Below, in pieces: positions 15,137-39,118 of a DNA stretch of 64,000 nt; the first letter of the stretch is position 1; each line of letters opens with the position of its first letter. Source of the stretch: Gammaproteobacteria bacterium (GTDB lineage Bacteria > Pseudomonadota > Gammaproteobacteria > Steroidobacterales > Steroidobacteraceae); the NCBI GenBank assembly GCA_003137095.1, contig PLET01000070.1, forward strand, positions 585-64,584. The letters run 5' to 3'. Made by a program: the position numbers and the translations under genes. A model generated the notes under the pieces. The model worked only from the letters and a program-made list of their open reading frames with translations, did not search any database and was not told the DNA's origin.

Positions 15137-15140
15137 ATGG

Positions 15141-17603
15141 TCAGTTGGCGGCCGTGGCGGTTGCGCTGGTTCTCATCTTCTCGAACGGGGCGGACTCGAT
15201 GACGCCCATCAACAGGGCGGAAAAACGTCCGTCATTCTCCTGCAGCCGCTGCACGATCCGGTCGATGGTCTCCGTATCGTAGTACTCCGTGCCGCGTCCG
15301 AGCGCATAGGTGAGCAGTTTGTCCGTCAGAGTGCGGTAGAAATCCAGGCGATGCTGGGTGGCGAGAATGTGCTTGAGCTCGTTGACGCTGTTGAACGTTT
15401 CCCCCGTCACCAAGGTGCCCTGCGCAATGATGGGCTGCTTGCGCTCCTGATCGCGCCACATGCCCATGGCGTTGAAATTCTCGAACGCCAGCCCGATCGG
15501 ATCCATGCGGCTGTGGCAGGACTGGCACAGAGGCTTGTCGCGATGCATCTGCAGCGATTCGCGCAAGGTGGGCTCGTGATCCTTGAAGTCCTTCTCGCTG
15601 GCCTCCAGGGCCGGCACGTTCGGCGGCGGCGGCGGGGTCGGCGTTCCGAGAATGTTGTCGAGCACGAACAGCCCGCGCTTCACGGGCGAGGTGCGGTCCG
15701 GATTCGACGTCACCACCAGCGCGCTGGCCTGCGTGAGCACGCCGCCGCGAACACTGCCGGGCGGCAGGGTCACACGGCGCATGTCGGCGCCGGTCACGTC
15801 GGGAATGCCATAGAGTTTGGCCAGTTTGTCATTCAGGAAGGTGTAATTGCCGTCGATCAGCTCGGTGACCGGACGGTCCTCGTGGATGATGCTGGAGAAG
15901 AACATTTCCGTTTCGCGCTGCATCGCCGCGCGCGTGTCGTCGTCGAGCTGCATCCTGGGCCGGCCGAACTTGTTGCGCAGTTGGGGTGCCTTCGAGAAGT
16001 CCCCCTGGTTGCGCACGGCGTCGAACACCGCGTGCAGTTCCTTCTCCTCGCCATCGTCGCGGGCCAGGATCGCCAGGGCGTCATTCGCGATTCCCTTGAC
16101 GTCGCGGGTCTGCAGCCACTGGCCCGAGAAATTTCGGGCGAGCTGTTCCGAGCGCGGATCGGCCAGCATGCGCTTCACCTGCGCCGCCAGGCTGCTGCGC
16201 AGCTCGCCGCGTGCCGCCAGATCGGACAATTCTTGATCCGGCATGGTCGACCAGAGAAAGTATGACAGCCGGGAAGCGAGCGAGTATTCGTCGATCAGCG
16301 CCGTGCGGGCCAAGGGCGACGCGGCGCCCGCGGGCGATTCCAGGCGGAACAAGAAGCGCGGAGAGGCCAGCACCGCCGCCATGGCGTGGGCGACGCCCGT
16401 CTCGAACGTCTGCCCGCGCTGATGATAGGTGCTCTCGGCGAGCGCCGCGAGGCGCTGTGCCGTGTCGTCGTCGAGCGGCCGCCGATACGCCCTGGCCGCG
16501 AATGCGCCGAGCAGCTCGCGCGCATAGGCGCGCCGCTTCGCACCGCCGAAGGGGACGGGTCTCGGGAAGAAGCGCCGGTAGTTCGGCTGTTCCACCCATT
16601 TGCCCCGCTCGAGCGGACCCTGGATCAGCACCTTGGCGATCACCAGATCGACGCGGTTCTTCTTTTGAGCAACCGGCGTCAGCGGCTGCAGATCGAAGCT
16701 CATGCGATGCCCGGCCGCAGCCAATCGATGCGTGGATTCCAGACTGAACGTTTTGTCGCTGTAGTAGCCGAATTCCTGATCGAGGATTGGCTTTCCATCC
16801 AGCTTCACGGTGAGGCGGCAGCGTCCCGGGTCGAATTCGAAGCTGCCGTTGACGTCGAGGTCGAGCACCACCAGATAGGTTCCCGGGCCATCCAAGGTGA
16901 TCGATTTTTCCACCGCCGCCGGTTCGTAGTACGAGAGCCGCAACCGGCCGTCCTTGCGGGAGGCATCCGTGCCGCTGCCCTTGCCGGTGAACTCGGCGCC
17001 CGGCACGCTGCGTTCACCGATCTTCTTCTCCACGGTCGGCACGGCCTCGGCGATGATCGCCTGGGCCGCCGCGACGTACTTCTCCATCAGCATCGGCGAG
17101 ACCGAAAGCGCATCGCCGATGTTGTCGAAACCGTAGCCCGCGTCATCGGGCGGGAATTCGATCTGCGTGTCGAAATCCACACCGAGCAGATCCCGGACGG
17201 TGTTGCGATACTCGACGCGGTTCAGCCGGCGCACGGTAACGCGGCCCGGATCGGGGTTGCGCGGATCGATGGCGAAGACCTCGTACTTGATCCAGTGTTC
17301 GAGCTTCTGCTGCTCCTCGGGGGTGGGCCGCGGCTTGTGCTCTGCGGGCATGAGGCCGGCGCGGGTGTTCTTCAGGACCTTGAGCCACAGATCGCGATTC
17401 AGGATGTCCTCATCCGAGCTCAACTCATCGAAGGCGACCCGGCCCTTGTCATTGCCGTCGCCGTGACATTCGTAGCAACGGTCCTCGAGAATGGGGCTGA
17501 TTTCATTGCGGTAATCGCTGACGGCAGATCTCTGCGCGACCTGTGCGGAGGCCACAGTTGTCATAATCAGTCCAGCCAGGAATGGTGCAATGCGAAGCGT
17601 CAA
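15141..17603 (-). CDS. DUF1592/DUF1585/DUF1587/DUF1588/DUF1595-type protein with N-terminal cytochrome-like CxxCH
   Basis: Signal peptide, 'CYECHGDGNDKG', 'RRLNRVEYRNTVRDLLGV', C-terminal 'CQSCHSRMDPIGLAFENF'. This is the usual partner of DUF1552. Confidence 0.85.
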   Translation of the reverse strand: MTLRIAPFLAGLIMTTVASAQVAQRSAVSDYRNEISPILEDRCYECHGDGNDKGRVAFDELSSDEDILNRDLWLKVLKNTRAGLMPAEHKPRPTPEEQQKLEHWIKYEVFAIDPRNPDPGRVTVRRLNRVEYRNTVRDLLGVDFDTQIEFPPDDAGYGFDNIGDALSVSPMLMEKYVAAAQAIIAEAVPTVEKKIGERSVPGAEFTGKGSGTDASRKDGRLRLSYYEPAAVEKSITLDGPGTYLVVLDLDVNGSFEFDPGRCRLTVKLDGKPILDQEFGYYSDKTFSLESTHRLAAAGHRMSFDLQPLTPVAQKKNRVDLVIAKVLIQGPLERGKWVEQPNYRRFFPRPVPFGGAKRRAYARELLGAFAARAYRRPLDDDTAQRLAALAESTYHQRGQTFETGVAHAMAAVLASPRFLFRLESPAGAASPLARTALIDEYSLASRLSYFLWSTMPDQELSDLAARGELRSSLAAQVKRMLADPRSEQLARNFSGQWLQTRDVKGIANDALAILARDDGEEKELHAVFDAVRNQGDFSKAPQLRNKFGRPRMQLDDDTRAAMQRETEMFFSSIIHEDRPVTELIDGNYTFLNDKLAKLYGIPDVTGADMRRVTLPPGSVRGGVLTQASALVVTSNPDRTSPVKRGLFVLDNILGTPTPPPPPNVPALEASEKDFKDHEPTLRESLQMHRDKPLCQSCHSRMDPIGLAFENFNAMGMWRDQERKQPIIAQGTLVTGETFNSVNELKHILATQHRLDFYRTLTDKLLTYALGRGTEYYDTETIDRIVQRLQENDGRFSALLMGVIESAPFEKMRTSATATAAN

Positions 17604-18868: not shown

Positions 18869-19105
18869 TCCGCGTCACTGCGAACGCGACATTCGCAGGC
18901 ATCACGATTGACGATGCTCGCGATCGCCACAAACCGTTGTACAGGCATGACGGCACGCTCGTAACCTGCCCCCCGATCAAGACCTACGCCGCGCCCTGCG
19001 TGGCGAAGGTACAACAAAAAATGGACGTCGGAGACGATCGCGTCTCGAGCCGGGTTGGATCGAATCGGTTCATGTGCCGATGAAAACGACGGGGGGTGGG
19101 CTGGC

Positions 19106-21409
19106 ATGCGCAATCATAAACTATCGTTGGCTTGTGCCGTGTTGGGACTCGCTGCGGGTACGGCATCGACCCCGGTCATGAGTGAGCCGGCGGCCAATGC
19201 CGCGCCCGAACTGGAGGAAATCGTCATCACGGCGCAGAAGCGGCCCGAAAAACTGCAGGACGTGCCGGTGGCTGCAGACGTGCTGTCCGCCCGGACCCTC
19301 GCCAATGCGAACATCGCCGACCTGTCTGACCTGAACAACCTCGTGCCGTCCGTGCAGCTCAACGGCACCATCAACGGCCGCGTGCCGACGGGAATACGCG
19401 GCATCTCCAGCGTCTCGAACGAGCAGACCGTCGGCATTTCATCGGGCGTCGCGATTACCATCGACGGGGTTCCGGTGCCGTCCGACTCCTTCGATGCGAA
19501 CAACGTCGCCGGCGTGCAGAGCGTCGAAGTGCTGCTCGGCCCCCAGTCGACCCTGGGCGGGCGGACGGCGGCTTCGGGCCTCATAAATTTCACGACCCGC
19601 GGACCGAGCGATGTCGCCCAGGGATTCGCCACGACCACGGTGACCGACGACGGCGAATACCGCATCGAAGCGTTTCTGTCCGGACCGATCACGAGCCGCC
19701 TGGAGGGCAGCCTGTCTCTCTACAAGAACACCACGCCTTACCCGATCACCAATCTGGCGACGGGCGACAAGACCACGCAGGACGTGTCCGGCGGCCGCGG
19801 AAAACTGCGTTTCAACGTCACCGACGATCTGGATGTGACCTTGATGGTTCACAGCGAACTCACGCAGGGACACGGCTTCAATTTCGTGTACACCTACATC
19901 ACGCCGGGCAACGATCTGCTGTTCACGCCCGGCCCCTTCACCCAGGCGAAGCTGCTGCCGGGCATCACGCCCTCGTGGAACAATCTGGCCTACGCGAGCC
20001 CGGTAACCACGGCCGGCGCGGACCACCGCGACGGGGATTACAGCGTCATCATCGAGGATCGACTGGGCGGCGGCTACACGCTGACCTCGACCACGGCCTA
20101 CGAACAGGAGAACCAGGATCAGACCCAGGACCTGTTCGCCGTCGACAACTTCTTCTGGAATACGTTGACCGGCCAAACCGTGTTCTTCAACACGCAAAAT
20201 CAGGTGACCACCGTGAAACAGGAAAGCGAGGAGATCAAGATCACCTCGCCCACGGATCAGACGCTGAGCTGGCTGGCCGGTGTGTTTTACTCGGATGTCA
20301 ATGTGGATGAAACCTACAATCGAACCCTGCCGCCCGCGCTGATCGGCGTGCACGTGATTCCGGACACGAAGACCTACGATGTCTATGCGCGCTCGACCTG
20401 GCGGTTCACCGATGCGACGTCTCTGGTGGCGGGTCTGCGGTTCAATCACGATGCAATTTCCAACAATTACACGCAGTATGCCGACGCCGGCGTCTCGCCG
20501 CCGGTTTACACCAGCGTGAGCAGCGCCTCGTCCAACAACCTGGTCGGCGACATCGCGTTGAAGCAGCAGTTCACCGAGAATGTGATGGGATATGTGAGCT
20601 ATTCGCGCGGCTATTCGCCCATTGCGTACAACACCTCGCAGGTGCTCACCAGCAACGCGTCACAGACGCCGGTCGGCACCGAATCCATCAACAGCTTCGA
20701 GATCGGCACCAAGGGCTCGTACCTCGACCATACCCTGAACTTCAACGCCGACATATTCGACACGATTTACAACAATTACCAGATTCAAAGCTACGCCTAT
20801 GCACCCGGCGAGCTGACGCCGCCGCTCAATTTGAGTTCGGTCGGAAAGGCTCAGACCCGCGGCGCCGAGTTCTCGACCGAGTGGCTGGCGACGACCCTGA
20901 CCCGCCTCAGTCTGAGCGCGGCCTATATTGACGCCAAATTCGTCGATTACGACAACGCACCCTGCTACGGATTGCAGACGGCCGCGCAGGGCTGCGTGAC
21001 GCCGCTCAGCGGCGCAAGCCCTGCGCAGAACGTCTCCGGCGACGCCATGCCGAATTCACCCAAGTTCAAATTCGCGCTGGGCGGCGAACAGCGCGTGCCG
21101 GTGGTGGACCACCGCTTCGAGTGGGTGCTGGGCGGTACCTACACCTATCGGAGCTCGGCACAGATGCTGCCCGATCAGAACCCCTATGCGATCCAATCCG
21201 GATTCGGCCTGCTCAACCTGAGCGCGGGATTCGGCAGCAGCGACGGCCGGTATTCGGCGACGGCCTTCGTCAAGAACGTCACCAATCACCATTACTTCAG
21301 CGACGTCGAGGATTTCTGGAGCGGGCCGTGGAACGGCAATGCCGTCATTGGTCAGCCGGCGCGCGATTCGCAGCGCTACGCAGGCCTGCGCCTATCGGTG
21401 AGCTTCTGA
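19106..21409 (+). CDS. TonB-dependent outer-membrane receptor
   Basis: Signal peptide, 'LEEIVITAQKRPEKLQDVP', 'VEVLLGPQSTLGGRTAASGLINFTT', terminal '..GLRLSVSF' aromatic residue. Start at ATG 19106 (MRNHK..). Confidence 0.9.
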   Translation: MRNHKLSLACAVLGLAAGTASTPVMSEPAANAAPELEEIVITAQKRPEKLQDVPVAADVLSARTLANANIADLSDLNNLVPSVQLNGTINGRVPTGIRGISSVSNEQTVGISSGVAITIDGVPVPSDSFDANNVAGVQSVEVLLGPQSTLGGRTAASGLINFTTRGPSDVAQGFATTTVTDDGEYRIEAFLSGPITSRLEGSLSLYKNTTPYPITNLATGDKTTQDVSGGRGKLRFNVTDDLDVTLMVHSELTQGHGFNFVYTYITPGNDLLFTPGPFTQAKLLPGITPSWNNLAYASPVTTAGADHRDGDYSVIIEDRLGGGYTLTSTTAYEQENQDQTQDLFAVDNFFWNTLTGQTVFFNTQNQVTTVKQESEEIKITSPTDQTLSWLAGVFYSDVNVDETYNRTLPPALIGVHVIPDTKTYDVYARSTWRFTDATSLVAGLRFNHDAISNNYTQYADAGVSPPVYTSVSSASSNNLVGDIALKQQFTENVMGYVSYSRGYSPIAYNTSQVLTSNASQTPVGTESINSFEIGTKGSYLDHTLNFNADIFDTIYNNYQIQSYAYAPGELTPPLNLSSVGKAQTRGAEFSTEWLATTLTRLSLSAAYIDAKFVDYDNAPCYGLQTAAQGCVTPLSGASPAQNVSGDAMPNSPKFKFALGGEQRVPVVDHRFEWVLGGTYTYRSSAQMLPDQNPYAIQSGFGLLNLSAGFGSSDGRYSATAFVKNVTNHHYFSDVEDFWSGPWNGNAVIGQPARDSQRYAGLRLSVSF

Positions 21410-22035
21410 TGAAACGCGTTGGTGGGTTTCTGATGAAGCGCGCGGTCCTGGCGTCGGCCGTGATGGTGGCCTGCGCGGCCGTTGCGCAGTCACCGGCGCC
21501 GGCACCGGGGCCGGCCCAGGGCCCTGCGCCGGGTTCGGGATTCCCGGGGGATCACGGACGGCCCTTCGATGGTCTGCCGTTACCCGCCGGACCCCTGCCG
21601 CCGCGGCCGCCGGAGCGGCCGCTGCCGCGTGCGCCGTCCTTGGACCTGTCGCTGGAGGCGGCGATGGCGATCGTCGAGGCCTGCAAGGGTTATCATGTGG
21701 GAGTCAGCGTGATCGACTCCGCGGGAACACCGAAGCTGTACTACATTCCCGACGGCACGGATGGATCGCATGCCTACACGGGATTTCGAAAAGCGTACAC
21801 GGCGCTGGTGTTCAAGATGCCCACCTCACAGGTCGGTGCCTTGACGAGGACGGATCCGACCGTGGTCGCGCGCATCCGGGCGGACAAGAACCTTCTGAGC
21901 TTTGCCGGCGGACTTGTGCTCATGGCCGGCGGACAGGCGATCGGCGCGATCGGCGTGAGCGGCGCGGAGCCGAGCGCCAAGGACGAGGAGTGCGGGCTCG
22001 CCGGCATTGCCAAGATCCGCGACCGTCTCAAGTAA
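21409..22035 (+). CDS. Exported GlcG/HbpS-like (DUF336) haem/corrinoid-binding-domain protein
   Basis: ATG overlaps receptor stop (TGATG). Signal peptide, Pro-rich linker, then 'GVSVIDSAGTPK..', 'FAGGLVLMAGGQAIGAIGVSGA'. It is the C-terminal part of listed ORF 21121..22035. Confidence 0.8.
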   Translation: MKRVGGFLMKRAVLASAVMVACAAVAQSPAPAPGPAQGPAPGSGFPGDHGRPFDGLPLPAGPLPPRPPERPLPRAPSLDLSLEAAMAIVEACKGYHVGVSVIDSAGTPKLYYIPDGTDGSHAYTGFRKAYTALVFKMPTSQVGALTRTDPTVVARIRADKNLLSFAGGLVLMAGGQAIGAIGVSGAEPSAKDEECGLAGIAKIRDRLK

Positions 22036-22161
22036 GGCTCGAACTGAACCGCCTCGAATCGATAAGTTTTCCTCGATTTGACTTATCCGTCAAAATATCT
22101 GCGTTTCGAGACAACATTGGATATCAATATCGGCAAAGGCGCTGTAGAACCTGTCCACGAC

Positions 22162-22245
22162 TGACTGATACAGAGACCCAAGCAATACGCGAAGCTCTTG
22201 GACTGCACGGACCGCACTATAAGAGGAGTCGGCGCGAGTGACTGA
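22162..22245 (+). pseudogene. Decayed fragment homologous to an internal segment of the downstream CHAT gene
   Basis: 22174-22214 matches 22584-22624 at 37/41 nt. It reads ..IQRPKQYAKLLDCTDRT.. versus gene ..YSRLKQYAKLFDCTDRL... It is bounded by in-frame stops at 22162 and 22243. Confidence 0.5.
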
Positions 22246-22367
22246 CCGCAGCGGAGTGAAAACGATCACCGGCGCGTTGCGCGACACCCCTGCCAAATCC
22301 ATCGGCGCCGCGAATTATCGTCGAAATCCCGCACTGACGGGAAATCTTGAAATCTTGTGGGAGGCAC

Positions 22368-24770
22368 ATGACTTTGCGGTCGCTGTCAAGATTAATACTA
22401 TTCGTGGCCGTGCTTGCTGCCAGTCCTTCCTCTTTCTGCGGCGCCGCGAGTGCGGAGGAAAGCCTGACCTACCTGGAAACTGCGGGAAGGTATGCAGACC
22501 TGCAAGCAGAGGCGGAACACAGGCTGTCGAGTGGGCAAAAGGCCAATGCGACATTGCTGAGCTATCTGTGCATCTCATACAGCAGACTCAAGCAATACGC
22601 GAAACTATTCGACTGCACGGACCGACTGGACGAGGAAACGCGGCGCGGCGATTTCGAGATGGCGCTCGACAGCAAATGGATGTTCGTGGCCTCGTCGGAT
22701 GCCCGTCCGATGTCGGAGGTGCTCCGAGCGCGGGCCTATTTTGAACTGGGCGATTATCCAAAGGCCATCGCTTCCGGCAACCGGGCATTGGATCAACTCG
22801 GGGCCATTCCGAATACCGGTGGCCTGTCCCTGTATCCAAAGGTGAGATACGAAATAATGGCTCTTGCGGTCATCGGCGTTTGTGCGGTTCAAATCGGCGA
22901 TCAGCAGATGGCCAAGAGCATGGAGCGTCGGCTGCAGAAGGTGTCCCTTCCAATGCTCGGTTTGCGCATGTGGTTATGGACGAAAAACGCCGCCCTTACA
23001 CAGGTGTATATGGCAATGCATCAGTATAACGACGCCCTCAAACATATTCCGGACGAGCTGCCGGCGGTAATGAGTCTGATGATCAGCGGACTCGGACCGT
23101 ACGCCTACCACGGCGACGACGTCAACACGATACTCGACATACCCAACCAACTGATGCGCGGGAAAGCGCTTTCCGAAATTGGCAGGAAGTCAGAGGCAAA
23201 AGCGGTATTCGACAAGATTCTCTCTTCGCCACGTATCCGAGACGTGGGCGATCTGTACTGGCTCGCCCTATTCGAACGTGGCCGCATCGCGGAAAGCGAG
23301 AATAATCCCGAGCAGGCGTCGGATCTTTACCGCAATGCAGTGGATGTGGTCGAACTGCAGCGCTCCAGCGTTACTACCGAGGCCAGCAAGATCGGATTCG
23401 TGGGTGACAAGCAGATTCTCTACGCCAAGTTGATTGCGGCACTCATCGCCCAGGGGCACACGGCCGAGGCGTTCGACTACATAGAGCGCTCCAAATCGCG
23501 GGCTCTCGTAGACACGCTTGCCTCGAAGAAGGATTTTTATTTGGCGCCGGGGAATACGACGCAGATTCACGAGTTGCTGGTCAAGGTGGAGCAAGCGGAA
23601 ATGGAAGCGCCGAATACCGCTTCCGATTTAGTTGCGCAAAAAGACGAGTCTGCGACGTCTCCGTCCGCGGCGGTCTCCGGCCCTCGCAACCTCAGGATCT
23701 CAGCCGCAAGACAGGCTGCTGCCAGCATCCCCCCCGAAATCGCTTCGCTGGTGTCGGTCGCCTCGACACCTATCGAGGAAATCCGCGCTCTCATTCCAGC
23801 CGACGAAGTTCTGATCGAGTATTACTACGACGATAGGTCCCTTTTCACTTTCCTGCTTTCGCAAAAGGGGCTGCAGATGGTGCGCGGCGAGGTCGGTGAC
23901 CTGGTCGCGGATGCGCTGGCACTGCGCGATGCGATACAAAGCCAGGACGCGGACGCCTACCTGATCCCGGCGCAAAGGCTCTACAAGCGACTCGTTCTGC
24001 CAATCGATCCCCTGCTTAGCGGGGGCTCGAAATTGATTATCGTCCCACAAGGCGTGCTGCATTACGTGCCGTTCGCGGCCCTGCACGATGGCCGGGGCTA
24101 TCTGATCGACAAATATGCCTTTCGCGTATTGCCCAGCGCCAGCGTGATGAAGTACCTGCGCGGTAAGCACGAACTCAAGGAGGGCGGCATCCTCGCTTTC
24201 GGCAACCCCGACCTTGGCGACACGAGGTACGATCTTAAATTCGCTGAAGAAGAGGCAAGGGCAATCGTCCAGACAGTTGCAGGATCCCGCCTCTTCGTGG
24301 GCAAGGAAGCCACCGAAGCGGCGCTGCGGGAGAACGCGACGGCCTTCACCTACCTTCACTTTGCGACGCACGGGGAATTCGATGCCGACCACCCGCTGGA
24401 CTCGGCGCTCATCCTGGCGAAGGATGCTTCCAGCGACGGCTTTCTGACGGTCAGCAAGCTCTATTCGATGCACCTTGACGTCGACCTGGCAACGCTATCC
24501 GCCTGTGATACAGGGTTGGGCAAAATCGCCAACGGCGATGAGGTCGTCGGCCTGACACGAGGTTTCCTTTTTGCCGGAACCTCGACCGTCGTCGCGAGTT
24601 TGTGGCATGTGGACGACCAGGCTACCTCGACACTGATGCGACTGTTCTACGATCAGATAAAAGACAAGGGCAAACGTGAAGCTCTTCGTGAGGCCCAGAT
24701 AGTCACACGCCAATCATTTCCCAGTCCCTATTTTTGGGCGGGCTTCCAGCTCACCGGAAATGCGAACTGA
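22368..24770 (+). CDS. Exported TPR-repeat / CHAT-domain (caspase-like) peptidase
   Basis: Signal peptide MTLRSLSRLILFVAVLAASPSSFCGAASA, TPR-like helical repeats. C-terminal CHAT has 'LHFATHG' (His 24369-24371) and 'LSACDTG' (Cys 24504-24506), and ends 'PYFWAGFQLTG'. ATG 22368 sits behind GGGAGG. Confidence 0.85.
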   Translation: MTLRSLSRLILFVAVLAASPSSFCGAASAEESLTYLETAGRYADLQAEAEHRLSSGQKANATLLSYLCISYSRLKQYAKLFDCTDRLDEETRRGDFEMALDSKWMFVASSDARPMSEVLRARAYFELGDYPKAIASGNRALDQLGAIPNTGGLSLYPKVRYEIMALAVIGVCAVQIGDQQMAKSMERRLQKVSLPMLGLRMWLWTKNAALTQVYMAMHQYNDALKHIPDELPAVMSLMISGLGPYAYHGDDVNTILDIPNQLMRGKALSEIGRKSEAKAVFDKILSSPRIRDVGDLYWLALFERGRIAESENNPEQASDLYRNAVDVVELQRSSVTTEASKIGFVGDKQILYAKLIAALIAQGHTAEAFDYIERSKSRALVDTLASKKDFYLAPGNTTQIHELLVKVEQAEMEAPNTASDLVAQKDESATSPSAAVSGPRNLRISAARQAAASIPPEIASLVSVASTPIEEIRALIPADEVLIEYYYDDRSLFTFLLSQKGLQMVRGEVGDLVADALALRDAIQSQDADAYLIPAQRLYKRLVLPIDPLLSGGSKLIIVPQGVLHYVPFAALHDGRGYLIDKYAFRVLPSASVMKYLRGKHELKEGGILAFGNPDLGDTRYDLKFAEEEARAIVQTVAGSRLFVGKEATEAALRENATAFTYLHFATHGEFDADHPLDSALILAKDASSDGFLTVSKLYSMHLDVDLATLSACDTGLGKIANGDEVVGLTRGFLFAGTSTVVASLWHVDDQATSTLMRLFYDQIKDKGKREALREAQIVTRQSFPSPYFWAGFQLTGNAN

Positions 24771-24940
24771 GAGCGGGAAGATGGTCTGGCGCGGCGAATG
24801 AACTCATATGCCGTTTTGCACGGCAATCCAAGCGTGATGCGAACGGTGCTCGCAGTGATCCTGTGCACCGCCGCCACCTCAAGAACCCGCAGCCGGGTCT
24901 CGTGCCGCACCCGGTGGATCTCACGCTGCGGCGCGCTCAT
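24728..24940 (-). pseudogene. Possible relic of an IS3-type OrfA (HTH) transposase N-terminus
   Basis: 'RLRVLEVAAVHRITASTVR' resembles the IS3/IS911 OrfA HTH ('VAEVCREHGISQATFYRW'). The rest is non-homologous and runs antisense into the CHAT 3' end. Confidence 0.25.
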
Positions 24941-24977
24941 GCAATCTCGTGCGAAATCAAAGCCTGCATCAGCGCCT

Positions 24978-26030
24978 TCAAGCCTTCAGCTTGATCATCT
25001 CGGACGGCGGCGGACCCATGGAGCCTTTCTGCCGGATGCCCCGAAAGGGTTCGAGTGAACTGCGATCCTTGTCGAATTTCATGTCCCATTCGATGTTGGC
25101 ACCGCGCCAGAAGCTCGGCGTATAGGTGGCCCAGAGCAGCGAGCCGAATTTCCAGTCCCAGACGCGTGGCACCCAGTTGTCGTCGAGGTAATCGGTGTCG
25201 GCGTGGTATTCGGCCTCGCCGCCGTTCGGGTTGTCGAAATAGTAGTAGATCGCCGATGAAATCCGGTGCCGCGATAATCCGCCGAGCGTGTTCAGCCCCG
25301 AGTTCTTCCAACCCTTCATGTCCATCTGATTGACGCCGAGCATCAATTCGTCGATGTCCTCCAGGCCGAAGGCGATGTGCATGAAGCCGGGCTCATCGGG
25401 CGCCATGGGCAGCGCCGTCGACACGAAGAAAATGCTGTGATGTTCGTTGGTGCCGTCGGCGCGCGCGAATGCGCCGGCTCCGCGCGAATGGTCCGTGTAG
25501 CGGAATCCGAGGCGGTCGACGAAGAACTCGAGCGATGCGACATAGTCGCGCGCGAAAAACACCACATGATTGATGGTCTTCGGAATGGCGCGCTGGCGCC
25601 ATTTGCGATGCAGATTGAGCCGTTGAATGCGCCCCGGCGCATTGACCGCGTCGGGTTGACTGACCACGGCGCGCTTGTTCCAGACGCGCAATCCCAGGGG
25701 CATGCCGTCATCGGCGAGAAAGTGCGCCGTGCCGTCGGCATCGCGATGTATCGGCCGGTCGCGACCCAGGTCGGCGAGCAGCCGATCGAGCGCCTCCGCG
25801 GTGTCGACACCCCAAATGGTTTCCCGGATGCCCGGTTTGTCGGCATAGGCCGATGGCAATGACGCATCGTCGCGACGCCGCACCACTACCTTGGAACCGC
25901 TGGCCACCTCGAACACCGCTTGCGCGGCGCTGCGGGAAACGCCTGTCAGGCCGAAATCCGTCCAGAATTTGCTGCAAAGTTCGATGTCGTCGACGCCGAA
26001 AATCGCGCTCTCAACGCCCAATATCGCCAT
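24978..26030 (-). CDS. Two-domain VOC (glyoxalase/extradiol dioxygenase) family protein
   Basis: 'MAILGVESAIFGVDDIE..' and a second module 'INHVVFFARDYVASLEFFVDRLGF', 'FMHIAFGLEDIDE'. Confidence 0.8.
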   Translation of the reverse strand: MAILGVESAIFGVDDIELCSKFWTDFGLTGVSRSAAQAVFEVASGSKVVVRRRDDASLPSAYADKPGIRETIWGVDTAEALDRLLADLGRDRPIHRDADGTAHFLADDGMPLGLRVWNKRAVVSQPDAVNAPGRIQRLNLHRKWRQRAIPKTINHVVFFARDYVASLEFFVDRLGFRYTDHSRGAGAFARADGTNEHHSIFFVSTALPMAPDEPGFMHIAFGLEDIDELMLGVNQMDMKGWKNSGLNTLGGLSRHRISSAIYYYFDNPNGGEAEYHADTDYLDDNWVPRVWDWKFGSLLWATYTPSFWRGANIEWDMKFDKDRSSLEPFRGIRQKGSMGPPPSEMIKLKA

Positions 26031-26166
26031 AGGGTTGTTCCATTGTCCTGTGTGTGGTCAAGCATCCGGAAAGAGCCTACCGCTGCGGGCCGCGCCCTGT
26101 AAAAGCAATTGTCCGGATTGCCGACATCAGCAAAGGCGATGCGCGATCCCGACGGCGGCGCGCCCT

Positions 26167-27240
26167 TCACGAAGGGGTGTGCGTATGCAGCAAACGTTGC
26201 GCATTGCCGCTCAAAATCGCCGCGCGATCCTCCGCGGTGAGGCCCGCCGTGCCGCCGACCAGGGCATGCACGTCGTAATGCCCCATGTCGAAGGGGTAGT
26301 CGGTGCCGACGATCACCTGGCTCACCCCCACCTGATCGATCAGATGGCGCAACGCCGGCGCCGAATACACCAGGGTGTCGAACCAGATGCGGCGCAGGTA
26401 GGTGCCCGGCGGTTCGGCCATGCTGTGGGCGTCTGGACGCACATGGTAGGCGTGGTCCGAGCGTCCGATGTAGGTGGGCAGGTAGCCGCCGCCGTGCGCC
26501 GCGCAGATCTTGAGTTCCGGATGACGGTCGAGTACGCCCCCGAAAATCAGATGCGATAGCGCGACCGCGGTCTCCACCGGCTGACCGACGCTGTTCGAGA
26601 GGTAGGCGGGCGCGAGCCGCTCGCCGAGCGAGCAGCCCATCGGATGGATGAACACCACGCAGCCGAGTTCCTGCGCCTTGGCCCAGACGGGCTCGAGGAC
26701 GGGGTCGGACAGCTCGCGCTCATTGACCGCGGTCGAGAGCTCGAAGCCGTGCAGGCCGAGGCGCCGCACGGCGGTCTCGAGCTGCATCACTGCGAGGTCC
26801 GGATGCTGCAGAGCGAGCGTGCCGAGACCCGCGAGCCGCTCCGGGTGCTGCGCGCACAGTGCTGCGATGTGCTCGTTCTGCAGACCGACGATCTGCTCCG
26901 CGAGGTCCCGGCCGGCCCAGTAATAGTACTGGGTGGGCAGCGGGCTGATGACCTGCATGTCGACGCCCAGGTGGTCCATGTCGGCCAGCCGCACGGCCAG
27001 ATCGGTGAGCGCGGCCGCCGCTTGCGGCAGCATGACCGCATTGTTGTGCGCCACCGAAGCAGCCCCCATGGTGCGCAGCCTCAAGTCCGGCTCCGCCTTC
27101 TTCTGCGGACAGTCGGCCACCAGGCGTTCGACCGTCGGCGTCACCACGTGCGCGTGCATGTCGACGGTGCGCACCCGCCGGCCCGCCGCATCGCGCACCC
27201 AGGTAGCCGGATCCGTACGAAAGCGTTGTTCCGGATGCAT
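26167..27240 (-). CDS. Amidohydrolase-2 family enzyme (ACMSD/LigW-type decarboxylase or hydratase)
   Basis: 'VDMHAHVV' metal motif, 'VFIHP', 'ICAAHGGGYLP', 'VGTDYPFD'. Confidence 0.85.
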   Translation of the reverse strand: MHPEQRFRTDPATWVRDAAGRRVRTVDMHAHVVTPTVERLVADCPQKKAEPDLRLRTMGAASVAHNNAVMLPQAAAALTDLAVRLADMDHLGVDMQVISPLPTQYYYWAGRDLAEQIVGLQNEHIAALCAQHPERLAGLGTLALQHPDLAVMQLETAVRRLGLHGFELSTAVNERELSDPVLEPVWAKAQELGCVVFIHPMGCSLGERLAPAYLSNSVGQPVETAVALSHLIFGGVLDRHPELKICAAHGGGYLPTYIGRSDHAYHVRPDAHSMAEPPGTYLRRIWFDTLVYSAPALRHLIDQVGVSQVIVGTDYPFDMGHYDVHALVGGTAGLTAEDRAAILSGNAQRLLHTHTPS

Positions 27241-27246
27241 GGACCT

Positions 27247-27693
27247 TCAGCCTGTCATCAGCGTCGCATGGTCTTCGGTCGGCTTGGGCGCTTCCACGAA
27301 CTCGACCAGATTGCCGACATTGTCGCGAATGAAGATGTTTGAGCCGTGCGCCATCTGCCTGGCCCACACGATGTCGGCGCCGCGCCGGCGCAATTCCTCG
27401 GCGAACTCGGGGACGCTGTGTATCGCGAACGACACGTGCTTGTTGCCGATGGTCTGCACATCCGTGTCCGGCATGCGCCGTTCCGGCGGCAGCGGCCTCG
27501 CTCCCGGCACCTGGAACAATTCGATGTGCAAAGGACCGTTGCGCAGCATCGCCACCTCGGCGGGGATTGCCGCAATGGGAAAGCGGCTCGCCAGTTCGAA
27601 GCCCAGCACCTCGCGCCACCAGGCGATGGCGGCATTCAGATCCGGCACGCTCAAGCCGCCATGGTGATGCCAGAATTCGAGTGCCTTAGCCAC
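27247..27693 (-). CDS. VOC/glyoxalase family protein
   Basis: 'HHHGGLSVPDLNAAIAWWREVLGF', 'KHVSFAI', 'IRDNVGNLVEFVE'. Start overlaps upstream gene stop by 8 nt. Confidence 0.8.
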   Translation of the reverse strand: MAKALEFWHHHGGLSVPDLNAAIAWWREVLGFELASRFPIAAIPAEVAMLRNGPLHIELFQVPGARPLPPERRMPDTDVQTIGNKHVSFAIHSVPEFAEELRRRGADIVWARQMAHGSNIFIRDNVGNLVEFVEAPKPTEDHATLMTG

Positions 27694-29575
27694 GGTTGCC
27701 GCTCCCGGAATGCTTCGAACGCCGAAAGATGAGGCGAAACAGAAAAGGAATCAGCGAGGATCGCATCATTTTGAACAGGCGGCGCGCCTGCTCGGGGCGC
27801 AGCGTCACCACCATCGGCATCGTACCGTAGGCTTGGCCCTTGACCACCAGATCATCGCCGCTGCGCTCGATCGTGCGGATGGTGAGCAGATTCTCGTCGG
27901 CGGCGCCGAACAGCGTGGCGCCGGTCGAATCGCCGTCCGCTGAGCCGCCGTCGCCGCCCAGACTCGTCACAGCGCCGCCGGCGGCGCTATCCGAACCTCC
28001 CGCGACCTTGTCGAAATCGAGACCCAGGTGTTCGAACATGCGCATGGCGGTTGCGCGGCCGGCGCCGTAAACGCCGCCGCCGGGGTGCTGGAACGGCCCC
28101 ACCAGATAGAACCGCGAGACGCCCGGAACCGTGTACTGCGCCAGATCCGGCGTCGGCCGATGACCGCCGGTCTGGTAGAAGTACGGCGCCACGCCGTGCA
28201 CGTCGCCGCCGACCATGCTGTTCGGCATGTTGCGGGCATGATCCAACGGCGTGACGATGGTGCGCTTGATGATGTTCTCCGCGGTGAGATTCCCGATGAA
28301 CTTGCGATAAGCGGCGAGGCTGCGGTCGCCCATCTGCTCTGCGATGTCATCCCAGCGCGCGGCACCCCCGTCCTCGAGGTTGTACGGCGCAAAGGTGATG
28401 CCGTGGAACATCCCGCGGCCGGGCGGCACCCGCGAGGGATCGGTGATGCTCTCATCGCCGCCCGCGATCAGCACCCGCTCTGAAATGCGGCCGCGCTTCA
28501 GCGCGTCGAAATCATCGAGCATCTCGCCCAGGGTATGACTGCTCATGAATTCGAGCATGATCGCCCGCGAGACCTCCTCACCGGCGATGAACTGCGCCTG
28601 CTGCTTGAGGTCGTAGTGGCTGACCATGATGCTGAACGCCGCCAGGCTGGTACGCTCGGCGCGCCCGAGCACGGGCCCCGGGACGCCGTCCAGGAACGCC
28701 CGCAGGCGGTGCGGATGGATCGCGCCGATGACGGCATCGTTCGCCGTGATTTCTTCGCCGTCGGCGAGACGTACGCCGGTGGCCCGTCCCGACGCGGTGA
28801 GGATCCGGGTGACCTCGCAGTTGCAGCGGACTTCACCGCCGTAATGCTCGATGCAGCGCACCAGAGACTCCGACAATTTGCCGCTGCCGCCCAGCGGCTG
28901 CGACACGCCATAACCGTGCATCAGGCCGGGCATGAGATAAATGCCGAAACCGGTGCCGAGCTCGTCCGGCAATTGCAGATTCTCGGATACCAGCCGCAAC
29001 AGCCAGATCTTGACCTTTTCGCTTTCGAATTCCTGATTGCAGATGTCGAGCGAACTGCGCTGCATCGCATCGAGAATCTCCCGTCCCTCCGGCGTCCCGT
29101 CGAGCATGCCGACCATCGCGCCCATCGGCGTCGGCGGAACGTACATGCCGGCGCCGATCATGGGCAGCATGCGGATGGCCCGCTGCGCGAAGCGCCGATA
29201 GGTGTCGGCGTCCTTTTGCGAGATCCTGGCGATGCCTTCGCAGGTCTTGTCCAAATCCTGGTAGGCGATCAGGGTGCTCTGATCGGGAAACACCATGGCG
29301 TAGGGAATGCCATATTTGTATTGCAGGCCAAATTGGCTTTGCAGCCCGAGTTCGTCCCGACGGATCATGGGGTTGCCCTGGATCATGATGTGCACACTGG
29401 AGTGCTCGTCATGCCAATAGCCGGGGGTGTTGATTTCACGGGTCACGACTCCGCCGCCCGGCCACGCCTTGCGCTCCAGCACCAGGACCTTCTTGCCCGC
29501 CTTGGCAAGGTAGGCGGCCGCCACCAGCCCGTTGTGGCCGGCCCCCATTGCCACGATGTCGTAGGCCGCGCTCAC
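27686..29575 (-). CDS. FAD/NAD(P)-dependent oxidoreductase (phytoene-desaturase/CrtI-like) with unassigned C-terminal extension
   Basis: 'YDIVAMGAGHNGLVAAAYLAKAGKKVLVLERKAWPGGG' dinucleotide fold. GTG 29575 overlaps the MFS stop (GTGA). The listed 815-aa ORF extends spuriously across the MFS gene. Confidence 0.8.
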   Translation of the reverse strand: MSAAYDIVAMGAGHNGLVAAAYLAKAGKKVLVLERKAWPGGGVVTREINTPGYWHDEHSSVHIMIQGNPMIRRDELGLQSQFGLQYKYGIPYAMVFPDQSTLIAYQDLDKTCEGIARISQKDADTYRRFAQRAIRMLPMIGAGMYVPPTPMGAMVGMLDGTPEGREILDAMQRSSLDICNQEFESEKVKIWLLRLVSENLQLPDELGTGFGIYLMPGLMHGYGVSQPLGGSGKLSESLVRCIEHYGGEVRCNCEVTRILTASGRATGVRLADGEEITANDAVIGAIHPHRLRAFLDGVPGPVLGRAERTSLAAFSIMVSHYDLKQQAQFIAGEEVSRAIMLEFMSSHTLGEMLDDFDALKRGRISERVLIAGGDESITDPSRVPPGRGMFHGITFAPYNLEDGGAARWDDIAEQMGDRSLAAYRKFIGNLTAENIIKRTIVTPLDHARNMPNSMVGGDVHGVAPYFYQTGGHRPTPDLAQYTVPGVSRFYLVGPFQHPGGGVYGAGRATAMRMFEHLGLDFDKVAGGSDSAAGGAVTSLGGDGGSADGDSTGATLFGAADENLLTIRTIERSGDDLVVKGQAYGTMPMVVTLRPEQARRLFKMMRSSLIPFLFRLIFRRSKHSGSGNRG

Positions 29576-30804: not shown

Positions 30805-30824
30805 TGCGGGCGCCGGGGCCGCGT

Positions 30825-32668: not shown

Positions 32669-32675
32669 TCTCCGG

Positions 32676-34719: not shown

Positions 34720-34730
34720 GGGTGACCCCC

Positions 34731-35018
34731 TCAAAGATCGCGATAGTGTTCCACCGCCGGCGGCACGGCAAAAAACGGCCCGAGCAGCGCGCGCCAGGAG
34801 GCGAAGGCCGGGGAGCCGCGAAATCCGACGGTATGGTCCTCGAGCGTATCCCACCGTACGGTCAACAGGTAGCGATTGGGCGCCTCGATGGAACGGCGCA
34901 GCTCATGGCCAAGATGCCCGACGCTGCCCGCCAGATGGCTACGGGCCTTCGCATAGGCGGCTTCGAAGTCCGTCTCCCGGCCCGGATGAATCGTGAGCAA
35001 CGCGGATTCGACGATCAT
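34731..35018 (-). CDS. Antibiotic-biosynthesis-monooxygenase (ABM) domain protein
   Basis: 95 aa, '[13 protein letters not shown]', '[13 protein letters not shown]'. 4-nt overlap with upstream FAH gene. Confidence 0.75.
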
Positions 35019-35992: not shown

Positions 35993-36011
35993 GTGTTCAG
36001 CCTCGGGTCGT

Positions 36012-38002: not shown

Positions 38003-38062
38003 TCGCCCGTCGCCGGCCGACGGCCCCTATTTTGCCGGTGCAATCATGTCGGCATCGGCCAC

Positions 38063-39113: not shown

Positions 39114-39118
39114 GCGCG

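What the first reader, a model, noticed from the sequence alone, without database searches (positions are those of the whole stretch)
22036..24977. AT-richer ~2.9-kb islet carrying a lone, exported TPR-CHAT (caspase-like) protease
Seen: G+C drops sharply across this segment. 21421-21480 is 45/60 G+C, 22081-22140 is 24/60, and 23041-23100 inside the gene is 34/60; it recovers by about 24.8 kb. The islet holds one 800-aa ORF with four parts: a Sec-type signal peptide, about 400 aa of TPR-like helical repeats, a low-complexity linker, and a C-terminal CHAT domain. The caspase-type dyad is intact (His in 'LHFATHG', 24369-24371; Cys in 'LSACDTG', 24504-24506). Established: CHAT is a caspase-fold peptidase domain, and the TPR-CHAT architecture is that of Csx29, the protease partner in type III-E CRISPR systems, which acts in the cytoplasm. 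Inference: no CRISPR, NTPase or other partner gene is nearby, and the protein looks exported. It is therefore a horizontally acquired, extracytoplasmic TPR-CHAT protease of unknown substrate. The left flank holds a decayed copy of part of the gene and the right flank a possible IS-type HTH relic, which fits acquisition or rearrangement by mobile DNA.
Basis: partly seen in the sequence, partly recalled or inferred. Interest (0 to 1): 0.72.

Follow-up and report, generated by a model that had tools for sequence, protein, structure and literature searches.

The report
Solitary exported TPR-CHAT protease on acquired islet
A 2.9-kb stretch of foreign-looking DNA in a soil or freshwater gammaproteobacterium carries one intact gene for a caspase-like (CHAT) protease that is sent out of the cytoplasm; it belongs to a large, uncharacterised family of such exported proteases, so it is a moderately interesting, not unique, find.

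Summary
Window 22036-24977 is the lowest-G+C 2.9-kb stretch of the 64 kb (0.573 vs 0.652) and the strongest tetranucleotide outlier (z=4.5). It carries one 800-aa ORF (22368-24770, +).

The ORF has four parts:
- a Sec-type signal peptide (predicted cleavage ASA|EE after residue 29);
- about 380 aa of TPR-like solenoid;
- a disordered linker;
- a full-length CHAT domain (Pfam E=1e-71) with an invariant His668/Cys713 dyad.

The two closest reference genomes lack the gene at this site, and nucleotide homology breaks exactly at the islet's edges. An 83%-identical homologue sits in an unrelated context and shares only the CDS. Recent horizontal acquisition is well supported, but no vehicle was found: no IS, integrase, tRNA or flanking repeats. 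The left-flank relic of the gene's 5' end is real (22066-22242). The right-flank "HTH relic" has no support.

The protein is not Csx29 (38.5 bits vs a cut-off of 300). It belongs to a large family with a fixed architecture (152 clusters at 50% identity with E<=1e-30). Its export signals are conserved, either Sec-type or lipobox, and it is usually solitary (34 of 38 loci).

A periplasmic TPR-CHAT has a published precedent, the M. xanthus anti-sigma factor DdvA. A soluble, stand-alone exported one is uncharacterised. The substrate remains unknown.

The parts
22036..24977 (.). Low-G+C islet between the HbpS/GlcG-like gene (stop at 22035) and the VOC/glyoxalase-fold gene (24978-26030, minus strand). 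It sits at a synteny breakpoint.
   Evidence: G+C is 0.573 against 0.652, the lowest 2.9-kb stretch in the window; tetranucleotide z=4.5. Nucleotide homology to the closest MAGs, L009 and L010, ends at 22037/22042 and resumes at 25039/25025.
22066..22242 (+). Decayed, stop-containing relic of the 5' part of a family gene, equivalent to residues about 31-95. The best-conserved core is 22165-22236.
   Evidence: Direct repeat D1, 41 nt at 90%. blastn gives 81% over 73 nt, E=3e-13. blastx gives 12/14 aa against residues 73-86. The alignment extends further against P0083 and P0049.
22359..22364 (+). Shine-Dalgarno-like GGGAGG, 3 nt upstream of the ATG.
   Evidence: Read directly from the sequence.
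22368..24770 (+). Gene for the 800-aa exported TPR-CHAT protein, including the stop codon.
   Evidence: ORF list. Pfam CHAT E=1.1e-71 plus TPR hits. dN/dS=0.17 against the 83% homologue. AF2 model pLDDT 82, pTM 0.79.
22368..22454 (+). Sec-type signal peptide, residues 1-29 (MTLRSLSRLILFVAVLAASPSSFCGAASA|EE).
   Evidence: R4 and R8; a 10-residue hydrophobic run with mean Kyte-Doolittle value 3.25; A-S-A at positions -3 to -1. The pattern is conserved in 96 of 117 homologues, and 19 have a lipobox instead. In the model it is an isolated, low-confidence helix at residues 4-18.
22455..23606 (+). TPR-like alpha-solenoid, residues 30-413. It holds the invariant Cys68 (22569-22571) and Cys83 (22614-22616) on adjacent antiparallel helices.
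   Evidence: TPR_2 E=3.5e-10. About 20 helices in the model. Foldseek matches to the Csx29 TPR and to LGN, OGT and CTPR. C68 and C83 are invariant in 56 of 56 sequences, and family members typically have just 3 Cys in the mature protein. The N-domain alone finds 152 clusters at E<=1e-30, nearly all 760-800 aa.
23607..23711 (+). Disordered low-complexity linker, residues 414-448. It ends in the conserved motif G-x-R440-(N/S)-L; the Arg440 codon is 23685-23687.
   Evidence: pLDDT<50 over residues 414-448. Length and sequence vary across the family, but R440 is invariant.
23799..24767 (+). CHAT caspase-fold peptidase domain, structural residues about 478-800. The Pfam match covers residues 534-798 (23967-24761).
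   Evidence: PF12770 scores 242 bits against a cut-off of 24 and covers profile positions 3-289 of 289. Foldseek top hits are Csx29 (E=1.5e-16), DdvA (7e-13) and separases (3e-11).
24369..24371 (+). Catalytic His668 (CAC) in LHFATHG.
   Evidence: Invariant in 56 of 56 sequences. It aligns to the dyad His of DdvA and Csx29 in the PDB profile alignment.
24504..24506 (+). Catalytic Cys713 (TGT) in LSACDTG.
   Evidence: Invariant in 56 of 56 sequences. It aligns to the ACE motif of DdvA and Csx29.
24771..24977 (.). Right-flank spacer between the convergent CHAT and VOC genes. No recognisable feature.
   Evidence: No Pfam hit at E<=10. No similarity to the gene family. No terminator-like site.

Best explanation
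The islet is a recently acquired accessory gene, sitting at a rearrangement-prone junction of a Steroidobacteraceae-like gammaproteobacterial chromosome. It encodes a stand-alone, Sec-exported cysteine endopeptidase of the TPR-CHAT type.

Proposed working:
1. The precursor is exported, and signal peptidase I cuts after Ala29.
2. The mature protein of about 771 aa folds in the periplasm. A Cys68-Cys83 disulfide probably braces the first helical hairpins.
3. The N-terminal TPR solenoid serves as the ligand/substrate-docking and regulatory module. This is its role in Csx29 and separase, and the role proposed for DdvA.
4. The C-terminal CHAT domain uses His668/Cys713 for limited, site-specific cleavage of a periplasmic or envelope protein.
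5. The flexible linker, with its invariant Arg440, is a candidate hinge, pseudosubstrate or autoprocessing site.

Shown: architecture, fold, dyad invariance, purifying selection, conservation of the export signal, compositional anomaly, absence from the syntenic site in relatives, and solitary context.

Inferred: actual export, the disulfide, allosteric gating, proteolytic activity, and the identity of the target (unknown).
For: Protein identity:
- CHAT E=1.1e-71, full-length.
- H668 and C713 are invariant.
- AF2 pLDDT 82.
- Whole-length Foldseek matches to Csx29, DdvA and separase.
- dN/dS=0.17.

Export:
- A signal peptide with an AxA site lies directly before a conserved mature N-terminus in most homologues. 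An orthologous subgroup has a lipobox instead, so two different export signals occupy the same position.
- The mature protein has just three Cys, two of them invariant and on adjacent helices.
- A periplasmic TPR-CHAT is already published, in DdvA (PMC11506125).

Fixed architecture: the N-domain alone retrieves 152 clusters at 50% identity with E<=1e-30. Nearly all are 760-800 aa, with the domain starting 30-60 residues in.

Stand-alone:
- 34 of 38 metagenome loci of >=10 kb have a single copy and none of the partner types.
- No neighbour family recurs in more than 8 of 60 loci.
- No partner is encoded in the window.

Acquisition:
- The G+C, GC3 and tetranucleotide anomaly is not intrinsic to the family. 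In 7 of 9 other loci the gene is within about 2 G+C points of its flanks; L007 and L092 are 3 and 5.5 points lower.
- L009 has TonB-HbpS-VOC adjacent with no CHAT gene. L010 has two different genes at the same junction.
- The 83% homologue in L001 shares only the CDS and has other neighbours.
- Both junctions are confirmed in independent assemblies.
Against: - No signal-peptide predictor or experiment was available. Location beyond 'not cytoplasmic' (periplasm, outer membrane or secreted) is open.
- A thiol protease in the oxidising periplasm needs its catalytic Cys kept reduced.
- No substrate, partner or regulatory gene is linked, so the physiological role is a guess.
- No mobile-element hallmark flanks the islet: no integrase, IS, tRNA, target-site duplication or terminal inverted repeats. 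No full-length family member is on PLSDB plasmids.
- The site is also rearranged, with VOC inverted. The gene could therefore have been relocated within the genome rather than freshly imported.
- It was not tested whether the genomes behind L009 and L010 carry the gene elsewhere.
Confidence: 0.6

Rival explanations
1. The N-terminal hydrophobic helix is an uncleaved signal-anchor. The TPR-CHAT body faces the periplasm but stays tethered to the inner membrane. There it acts mainly as a sensor, like the DdvA periplasmic module, with proteolysis directed at itself or at a membrane partner.
For: DdvA is a membrane-tethered periplasmic TPR-CHAT, and is the second-best structural relative after Csx29. 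The disordered linker has an invariant Arg. A lipobox subgroup shows that membrane attachment occurs in the family.
Against: There is a canonical A-x-A site, and the conserved mature N-terminus begins immediately after it. There is no cytoplasmic domain: only 8 residues precede the h-region. No ECF sigma or anti-sigma was detected in the window by a crude tblastn or by Pfam in the +-12 kb neighbourhood.
Confidence: 0.12
2. It is a secreted extracellular protease, exported beyond the outer membrane. It would serve nutrient acquisition or antagonism against neighbouring cells, not an intracellular-envelope function.
For: It has a signal peptide and lies among catabolic and TonB-receptor genes. 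Caspase-fold secreted proteases exist, for example gingipains (own knowledge). Its distribution is accessory and patchy.
Against: The neighbouring genes are not co-acquired; they are syntenic in relatives that lack the gene. A large TPR regulatory module and limited-proteolysis relatives argue against a bulk digestive enzyme. The lipobox orthologues are cell-bound. No secretion-system gene is linked.
Confidence: 0.12
3. It is a cytoplasmic, Csx29-like defence protease whose apparent signal peptide is an artefact of start-codon choice.
For: The best structural matches are Csx29 chains. There is a weak NCBIfam Csx29 hit.
Against: The Csx29 model scores 38.5 bits against a cut-off of 300. PADLOC gives nothing significant. 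No cas gene, CRISPR array, Csx30/31 or sigma factor is present. The export signal and the residues after it are conserved in the great majority of homologues, with lipobox variants. There is no alternative downstream start with a ribosome-binding site.
Confidence: 0.03
4. The gene is an old resident of the lineage that was moved by the local rearrangement. Its low G+C reflects gene-specific constraints or low expression, not recent import.
For: The junction is a rearrangement breakpoint with VOC inverted and blocks reordered. The 5' relic indicates a local duplication or recombination history. No vehicle was found. The 83% identity to L001 is similar to the 75-84% identity of flanking genes to L009.
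Against: In 7 of 9 other loci the homologue is within about 2 G+C points of its flanks (L007 and L092 are 3 and 5.5 points lower), so the deficit is not intrinsic to the family. GC3 is 9-17 points below the neighbours. L009 and L010 lack the gene at this site. L001 shares no flanking gene.
Confidence: 0.15
5. The CHAT domain is catalytically silent and the protein acts only as a TPR scaffold or binding protein.
For: DdvA dyad mutants showed no phenotype under the conditions tested, and its proteolysis is unproven (PMC11506125).
Against: His668, Cys713 and many surrounding residues (G669, S711, A712, T715, G716, D724, D750) are invariant across sequences only 43-56% identical. The Pfam match covers the whole CHAT profile, positions 3-289 of 289.
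Confidence: 0.05

Closest known systems
DdvA of Myxococcus xanthus (PDB 8ROT/8RW5; Sci Adv 2024, PMC11506125)
   Same: Its TPR-CHAT module lies on the periplasmic side, with a canonical His-Cys dyad. It is the best sequence-level PDB match (E=0.005) and a strong fold match (E=7e-13). For both proteins the trigger and the substrate are unknown.
   Different: DdvA is a 991-aa single-pass transmembrane anti-sigma factor. It has a cytoplasmic zinc-binding domain, an ECF sigma partner, an extra scaffold region and a dimeric arrowhead shape, and it lacks a three-helix active-site motif. The window protein has only a cleavable signal peptide, no TM or ZASD region and no sigma partner, and it matches the full CHAT profile. 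Whole-chain TM-score is low (0.3).
Csx29 (TPR-CHAT) of type III-E CRISPR Craspase (e.g. PDB 8EEY, 8D9F)
   Same: Same two-module architecture, an N-terminal TPR followed by a C-terminal CHAT, and similar size. It is the best whole-length structural match (E=1.5e-16, TM about 0.5). It is an allosterically gated, site-specific protease.
   Different: Identity is 13-14%. The NCBIfam Csx29 model scores 38.5 bits against a cut-off of 300. Csx29 is cytoplasmic, is bound to Cas7-11, and cleaves Csx30. None of those genes, and no CRISPR array, is present here.
Separase (eukaryotic CHAT/C50 protease; PDB 7NJ1, 5U1T)
   Same: A helical-repeat N-terminal region plus a caspase-fold C-terminal protease, joined by an unstructured segment (Foldseek E about 3e-11). 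Separase cleaves after Arg and autocleaves in a disordered loop (own knowledge; specificity as cited in PMC11506125). This gives an analogy for the invariant Arg440 in the linker.
   Different: Separase is eukaryotic, cytoplasmic/nuclear and 1100-2100 aa, and is regulated by securin and Cdk1. There is no sequence-level relationship beyond the CHAT core.
Orthocaspases/metacaspase-like Peptidase_C14 proteins with DUF4384 in bacteria
   Same: They are caspase-fold His-Cys proteases. Exported C14-DUF4384 proteins are encoded next to TPR-CHAT family members in a minority of genomes (L002, L005, L007, L130).
   Different: The window protein has no PF00656 hit, and no such gene is in the window.

Membership tests
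CHAT domain peptidases (Pfam PF12770; MEROPS clan CD) | Significant match to the CHAT profile above the gathering score | tested here: met
   242 bits against a cut-off of 24, E=1.1e-71, profile positions 3-289 of 289.
CHAT domain peptidases (Pfam PF12770; MEROPS clan CD) | Intact His-Cys catalytic dyad at the aligned positions | tested here: met
   H668 and C713 are invariant in 56 of 56 sequences. They align to the HG / AC(E) motifs of DdvA and Csx29.
CHAT domain peptidases (Pfam PF12770; MEROPS clan CD) | Caspase-haemoglobinase fold | tested here: met
   The AF2 model has pLDDT>85 over most of residues 478-800. Foldseek probability is 1.00 to Csx29, DdvA and separase.
CHAT domain peptidases (Pfam PF12770; MEROPS clan CD) | Peptidase activity | not testable with these tools
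   Requires biochemistry.
Csx29 / type III-E Craspase protease | Score at or above the NCBIfam NF041237 cut-off | tested here: not met
   38.5 bits against a cut-off of 300; only the CHAT core aligns.
Csx29 / type III-E Craspase protease | Genomic association with Cas7-11/gRAMP, Csx30/Csx31/RpoE and a CRISPR array | tested here: not met
   The neighbourhood within +-12 kb is catabolic or transport genes. No repeat array. No RNA families or tRNAs.
Csx29 / type III-E Craspase protease | Cytoplasmic location | tested here: not met
   A conserved Sec or lipoprotein signal is present. This rests on sequence inference only.
DdvA-like TPR-CHAT anti-sigma factors | N-terminal cytoplasmic zinc-binding anti-sigma domain plus a transmembrane helix | tested here: not met
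   Only a 29-residue signal peptide precedes the TPR domain.
DdvA-like TPR-CHAT anti-sigma factors | Adjacent cognate ECF sigma gene | tested here: not met
   No sigma-70 family hit among the annotated neighbours. This is a weak test.
DdvA-like TPR-CHAT anti-sigma factors | Periplasmic TPR-CHAT module | tested here: met
   Export signal. Fold match to 8ROT/8RW5. Location is inferred.
Genomic island / mobile element insertion | Compositional deviation, and absence from the syntenic site in relatives | tested here: met
Genomic island / mobile element insertion | Mobility genes, a tRNA target, or flanking direct or inverted repeats | tested here: not met
   No integrase, transposase or HTH hit. 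No tRNA. No repeats bracketing the islet. No full-length plasmid-borne copies.
Peptidase_C14 (orthocaspase/metacaspase) | PF00656 match | tested here: not met
   Not among the Pfam hits at E<=0.01.

The most novel reading that the evidence does not exclude
The family may be a stand-alone extracytoplasmic 'sentinel' caspase. On this reading the TPR solenoid recognises a foreign or damage-associated protein in the periplasm, such as a phage or competitor protein. The CHAT domain then cleaves an envelope target to trigger a response.

In a minority of genomes the same proteins are wired into an entirely exported gene cluster. It contains paired TPR-CHAT lipoproteins, C14 caspase-DUF4384 proteins, MlaD/MlaE-like proteins and CHASE2 or other nucleotide cyclases. 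That would amount to a periplasmic caspase cascade feeding cyclic-nucleotide signalling, which the literature searched here does not describe.
Probability: 0.15. Interest if true: 0.8.

Novelty: new variant of a known kind. Interest (0 to 1): 0.45.

Why it matters
The TPR-CHAT proteases studied so far are cytoplasmic (separase, Csx29/Craspase), apart from the membrane-anchored anti-sigma factor DdvA. DdvA's periplasmic CHAT activity and trigger are still unknown.

A soluble or lipid-anchored, self-contained exported TPR-CHAT family is widespread in Pseudomonadota and Deltaproteobacteria-like MAGs. It would extend caspase-type regulated proteolysis to the bacterial envelope. It would also offer a simpler, single-gene system for asking what a periplasmic CHAT senses and cleaves.

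The window's copy is a clean example: one gene, clearly intact, under purifying selection and recently moved. However, it is one member of an already large, if unstudied, family, so its value is as an entry point and not as a singular discovery.

Tried and rejected
1. Csx29 membership: rejected (38.5 vs 300 bits; no cas context).
2. Known defence system: PADLOC gave only an insignificant BovA hit (E=0.0011, 16 bits).
3. Right-flank HTH/IS relic: no Pfam hit at E<=10 in any frame's ORF, and no family similarity.
4. Mobile-element boundaries: no bracketing direct or inverted repeats, tRNA or Rfam feature.
5. Plasmid carriage: tblastn against PLSDB found only partial CHAT-domain relatives, none covering >=80% of the query.
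6. A conserved partner for solitary copies: all-vs-all clustering of flanking ORFs from 60 loci found nothing in more than 8 loci. The immediate unknown neighbours of the lone copies are unrelated to each other.
7. Cluster partners elsewhere in the 64 kb (C14, DUF4384, MlaD/E, cyclases): none.
8. Sigma-70 promoter and intrinsic terminator scans around the gene: uninformative, no more sites than in shuffles.
9. Low G+C as a family-intrinsic property: rejected. In 7 of 9 other loci the homologue is within about 2 G+C points of its flanks; L007 and L092 are 3 and 5.5 points lower.
10. Assembly chimera: rejected, because both junctions recur in independent assemblies.
11. Literature searches for exported or soluble TPR-CHAT proteins and for a CHASE2-CHAT association found nothing beyond DdvA.
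The C68-C83 distance, the dyad geometry and the position of the linker relative to the active site could not be measured.

Full report
**1. Observation**

The segment 22036-24977 has 57.3% G+C against 65.2% for the 64-kb window.
- Among all 2942-nt windows the minimum (57.1%) starts at 22057. The next-lowest non-overlapping stretch is 62.0%.
- Tetranucleotide distance from the window mean peaks at 22001-25000 (z=4.5).
- GC3 of the gene is 0.688, against 0.78-0.855 for five neighbouring genes.
The third is 43/60, not 45/60.

The segment holds a single long ORF. It begins at ATG 22368, preceded by GGGAGG at 22359-22364, and ends at 24770, giving 800 aa.

**2. The protein**

Pfam gives a full-length CHAT match (PF12770, 242 bits, E=1.1e-71, residues 534-798). 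It also gives several TPR-clan hits at residues 119-143 and 261-286.

An AlphaFold2 model built on 56 homologues (pLDDT 82, pTM 0.79) shows:
- an isolated N-terminal helix (residues 4-18);
- about 20 helices forming a solenoid (33-413);
- a disordered stretch (414-448);
- an alpha/beta domain (478-800).

Foldseek against the PDB puts Csx29 chains first (E=1.5e-16, TM about 0.5, 13-14% identity). The M. xanthus anti-sigma factor DdvA follows (E=7e-13), then separases (E about 3e-11). Plain TPR proteins match the N-terminal half. At sequence level only DdvA (E=0.005) and Csx29 (E=0.01) are detectable in the PDB, and only through the CHAT core.

His668 (24369-24371, CAC) and Cys713 (24504-24506, TGT) are invariant in the 56-sequence alignment. 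So are Cys68, Cys83, Arg440 and many residues around the active site.

The gene is under purifying selection relative to its 83% homologue (dN/dS=0.17, dS=0.55).

**3. Export**

Residues 1-29 (MTLRSLSRLILFVAVLAASPSSFCGAASA) have two Arg, a 10-residue hydrophobic core and A-S-A before Glu30. There is no twin-arginine motif and no lipobox.

No signal-peptide predictor was available, so conservation served as the test:
- 96 of 117 full-length homologues have the same n-region and h-region layout.
- The conserved mature sequence (E)ESLTYLETAGRYADL begins right after an AxA-type site.
- 19 members instead carry a lipoprotein box (LSGC|ASEF) at the same place.
- The exceptions look like truncated or over-extended gene calls.

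Two different export signals at the same position, in front of a conserved mature N-terminus, are hard to explain unless the family works outside the cytoplasm.

Mature family members also typically contain just three cysteines. These are the catalytic one and the invariant pair C68/C83, which lie on adjacent antiparallel helices (61-73 and 77-92). This is the pattern expected for a structural disulfide in an exported protein (the disulfide itself is inferred).

**4. The family**

The full-length search returned 348 hits. Two are close: 100% from another metagenome, and 83%. The rest form a broad cloud at 43-56% identity over the whole length, nearly all about 760-840 aa. Where annotated at all, they are named 'CHAT domain-containing protein'. 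They come from Burkholderiales, Syntrophorhabdaceae, Syntrophales and unnamed MAGs.

The N-terminal domain alone (residues 30-410) was searched against 1.84 billion representatives.
- It found 1787 proteins at E<=1e-3, 419 at E<=1e-10 and 152 at E<=1e-30.
- Nearly all are 760-800 aa, with the domain starting 30-60 residues from the N-terminus.
- The architecture 'signal + this solenoid + CHAT' is therefore fixed and diverse.

**5. Genomic context in the window and in relatives**

The flanking genes are:
- left: a TonB-dependent receptor (19055-21409) and an HbpS/GlcG-like protein (to 22035);
- right, on the minus strand: a VOC/glyoxalase-fold protein (24978-26030), an amidohydrolase_2, a glyoxalase and an amine-oxidase-like flavoprotein.

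Further out lie an esterase, DUF1552/DUF1592-type proteins, SDRs, FAA hydrolases and a histidinol-dehydrogenase-like protein. The window contains none of the following:
- a CRISPR-like array;
- a tRNA or an Rfam match;
- a PADLOC match of any weight;
- a detectable ECF sigma factor, by a crude test.

A genome-collection scan with the VOC protein found the closest references. They are two uncultured Gammaproteobacteria MAGs (83% and 80% identity), then a Caulobacter sp. MAG (81%) and a Sphingomonas sp. (75%), then SAR86 and Steroidobacteraceae MAGs at about 70%.
- In L009, TonB, HbpS and VOC are directly adjacent on one strand, with a 163-nt spacer and no CHAT gene.
- In L010, two unrelated genes occupy that junction: a 202-aa NAD(P)-binding-type protein and a cytochrome b561-like protein (identified by reading their translations; no family search was run).
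- Nucleotide homology of both loci to the window stops at 22037/22042 and resumes at 25039/25025.
- In the window, VOC is inverted and the block to its right is reordered relative to L009. The site is a rearrangement breakpoint as well as an insertion point.

The 83% homologue (L001) shares only the CDS with the window (22368-24772, 83.9% nt identity). It sits between GntR/PhyH genes on one side and M19 dipeptidase/beta-lactamase/TonB genes on the other. Its G+C (0.603) equals that of its own flanks.

In nine other loci the homologue's G+C mostly tracks the host: seven lie within about 2 points of their flanks, while L007 and L092 are 3 and 5.5 points lower. The 8-point deficit here is therefore not a family property.

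Independent assemblies reproduce both junctions. L008 is 99.3% identical over 20607-24877, and L154 is 100% identical over 23907-25070.

Together these results support recent acquisition, or at least recent relocation from a lower-G+C background. No vehicle was found: no bracketing repeats, integrase or IS remnants, and no full-length plasmid-borne copies.

**6. Flanks**

The left flank contains a genuine relic of the gene's 5' part.
- The core, 22165-22236, is 81% identical to gene nt 207-278 (E=3e-13).
- Its translation is RPKQYAKLLDCTDR, against RLKQYAKLFDCTDR in the gene.
- Against other family members the similarity extends over 22066-22242, equivalent to residues about 31-95, and is interrupted by a stop codon.
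- It is closest to the resident gene, then to L001. It therefore records a local partial duplication or recombination, not a lost divergent paralogue.

The right flank (24771-24977) has no detectable feature. The proposed HTH relic is unsupported.

**7. Is there a conserved partner?**

Four of the ten long contigs inspected through gene-call tables show tandem TPR-CHAT paralogues (L002, L005/L006, L007, L089). Three of these (L002, L005/L006, L007) also carry exported Peptidase_C14(-DUF4384) and DUF4384 proteins. L005/L006 and L007 add MlaE/MlaD-like proteins and nucleotide cyclases, and L005/L006 also a CHASE2 cyclase. Almost every product in these clusters has a signal peptide, lipobox or TM segment.

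That arrangement is a minority.
- Six of those ten loci were solitary.
- In an unbiased metagenome scan, 34 of 38 loci of >=10 kb had a single copy and none of the partner types. One locus (L130) had the full cluster.
- All-vs-all clustering of flanking ORFs from 60 loci found no family in more than 8 loci. The top family was DUF4384; HigBA toxin-antitoxin pairs occurred in 3.
- None of the partners is encoded in the 64-kb window.

The protein is therefore most likely self-sufficient.

**8. Mechanism (best estimate, confidence about 0.6)**

The proposal is a Sec-exported, signal-peptidase-I-processed cysteine endopeptidase, soluble in the periplasm. Its TPR solenoid docks a protein ligand or substrate and gates the CHAT active site, which then performs limited proteolysis.

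The gating idea is borrowed from the three TPR-CHAT systems with structures. Craspase and separase are allosterically controlled, and the DdvA dyad was seen in a resting geometry (PMC11506125).

The disordered linker ends in a conserved G-x-R-(N/S)-L motif with an invariant Arg. By analogy with separase, which cleaves after Arg and autocleaves in a disordered loop, this could be a pseudosubstrate or autoprocessing site. That is speculation.

The substrate and the physiological role are unknown. An accessory, patchily distributed, frequently relocated gene is compatible with a conflict or defence role, or with niche adaptation, but nothing here demonstrates either.

**9. Comparison and novelty**

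- It is a bona fide CHAT-domain protein with TPR-CHAT architecture.
- It is not a member of the Csx29 family.
- It is not a DdvA-type anti-sigma factor: it has no ZASD, no TM helix and no sigma partner.
- It is not a C14 orthocaspase.
- Searches of the held literature found no description of soluble or lipoprotein stand-alone exported TPR-CHAT proteins, or of the exported CHAT/C14/DUF4384/Mla/CHASE2 clusters.

I rate it a new variant of a known kind, represented here by one ordinary member of a large uncharacterised family. Interest is 0.45.

Noticed in passing
L005 4033-18220; L007 1560-18349; L130 7434-18040; L002 1-10373: A minority of family members sit in a conserved gene cluster that appears to be entirely exported. 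It comprises a nucleotide cyclase, an unknown 292-aa signal-peptide protein, MlaE, a DUF4384 protein, one or two TPR-CHAT lipoproteins, Peptidase_C14-DUF4384, a 146-aa protein, MlaD, a TPR lipoprotein and a CHASE2-cyclase. No paper in the held library links CHASE2 with CHAT. This could be an undescribed periplasmic caspase/cyclic-nucleotide signalling system.
   Followed up: partly
window 21499-21522 and 24423-24425 (vs L008): The near-identical metagenome contig L008 differs from the window in three ways: a 24-nt in-frame indel in the Pro/Gly-rich N-terminal region of the HbpS-like gene, a 3-nt indel removing Asp686 of the CHAT protein, and one substitution (Met->Arg at about residue 181). 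These are population-level polymorphisms in the same lineage.
   Followed up: partly
window 21397-21442: A 24-nt tandem duplication (1.9 copies) spans the TonB-receptor stop and the HbpS-like start, duplicating the 'F*MKR' start region (LLMKRVGGFLMKRAV). It creates two possible in-frame starts for the HbpS-like gene.
   Followed up: no
window 24978-40351 vs L009/L010: Relative to the closest MAGs, the window shows a multi-step rearrangement. VOC is inverted. An amidohydrolase and a glyoxalase (26167-27693) are inserted. The block 28015-39064 corresponds to L009 21044-11151 in reverse, and is followed by 39296-40351 = L009 5353-4298. The HbpS-VOC junction also differs between L009 and L010, so it is a hotspot for gene-content change.
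   Followed up: partly
L004 10580-11062; also L131, L138: HigB/HigA-type toxin-antitoxin pairs lie next to solitary family members in 3 of 60 loci. In L004 the gene is embedded among heavy-metal resistance genes. This suggests that some copies ride on accessory or mobile islands.
   Followed up: no
window 13766-17603 (minus strand): A DUF1552 (HXXSHH) protein and a DUF1592/1588/1587/1585/1595 multi-domain protein, a pair typical of Planctomycetes-type genomes, occur upstream of the TonB receptor in this gammaproteobacterial window.
   Followed up: no
window 5501-8500: This is the second-strongest tetranucleotide outlier region of the window (z=2.1). It was not examined.
   Followed up: no
L002 1-1386 (minus strand): A third, apparently frameshifted or split TPR-CHAT paralogue lies beside the tandem pair. 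It gives two tblastn pieces at 45-50% identity, and gene calls on both strands overlap it. TPR-CHAT paralogues appear to decay as well as duplicate.
   Followed up: no
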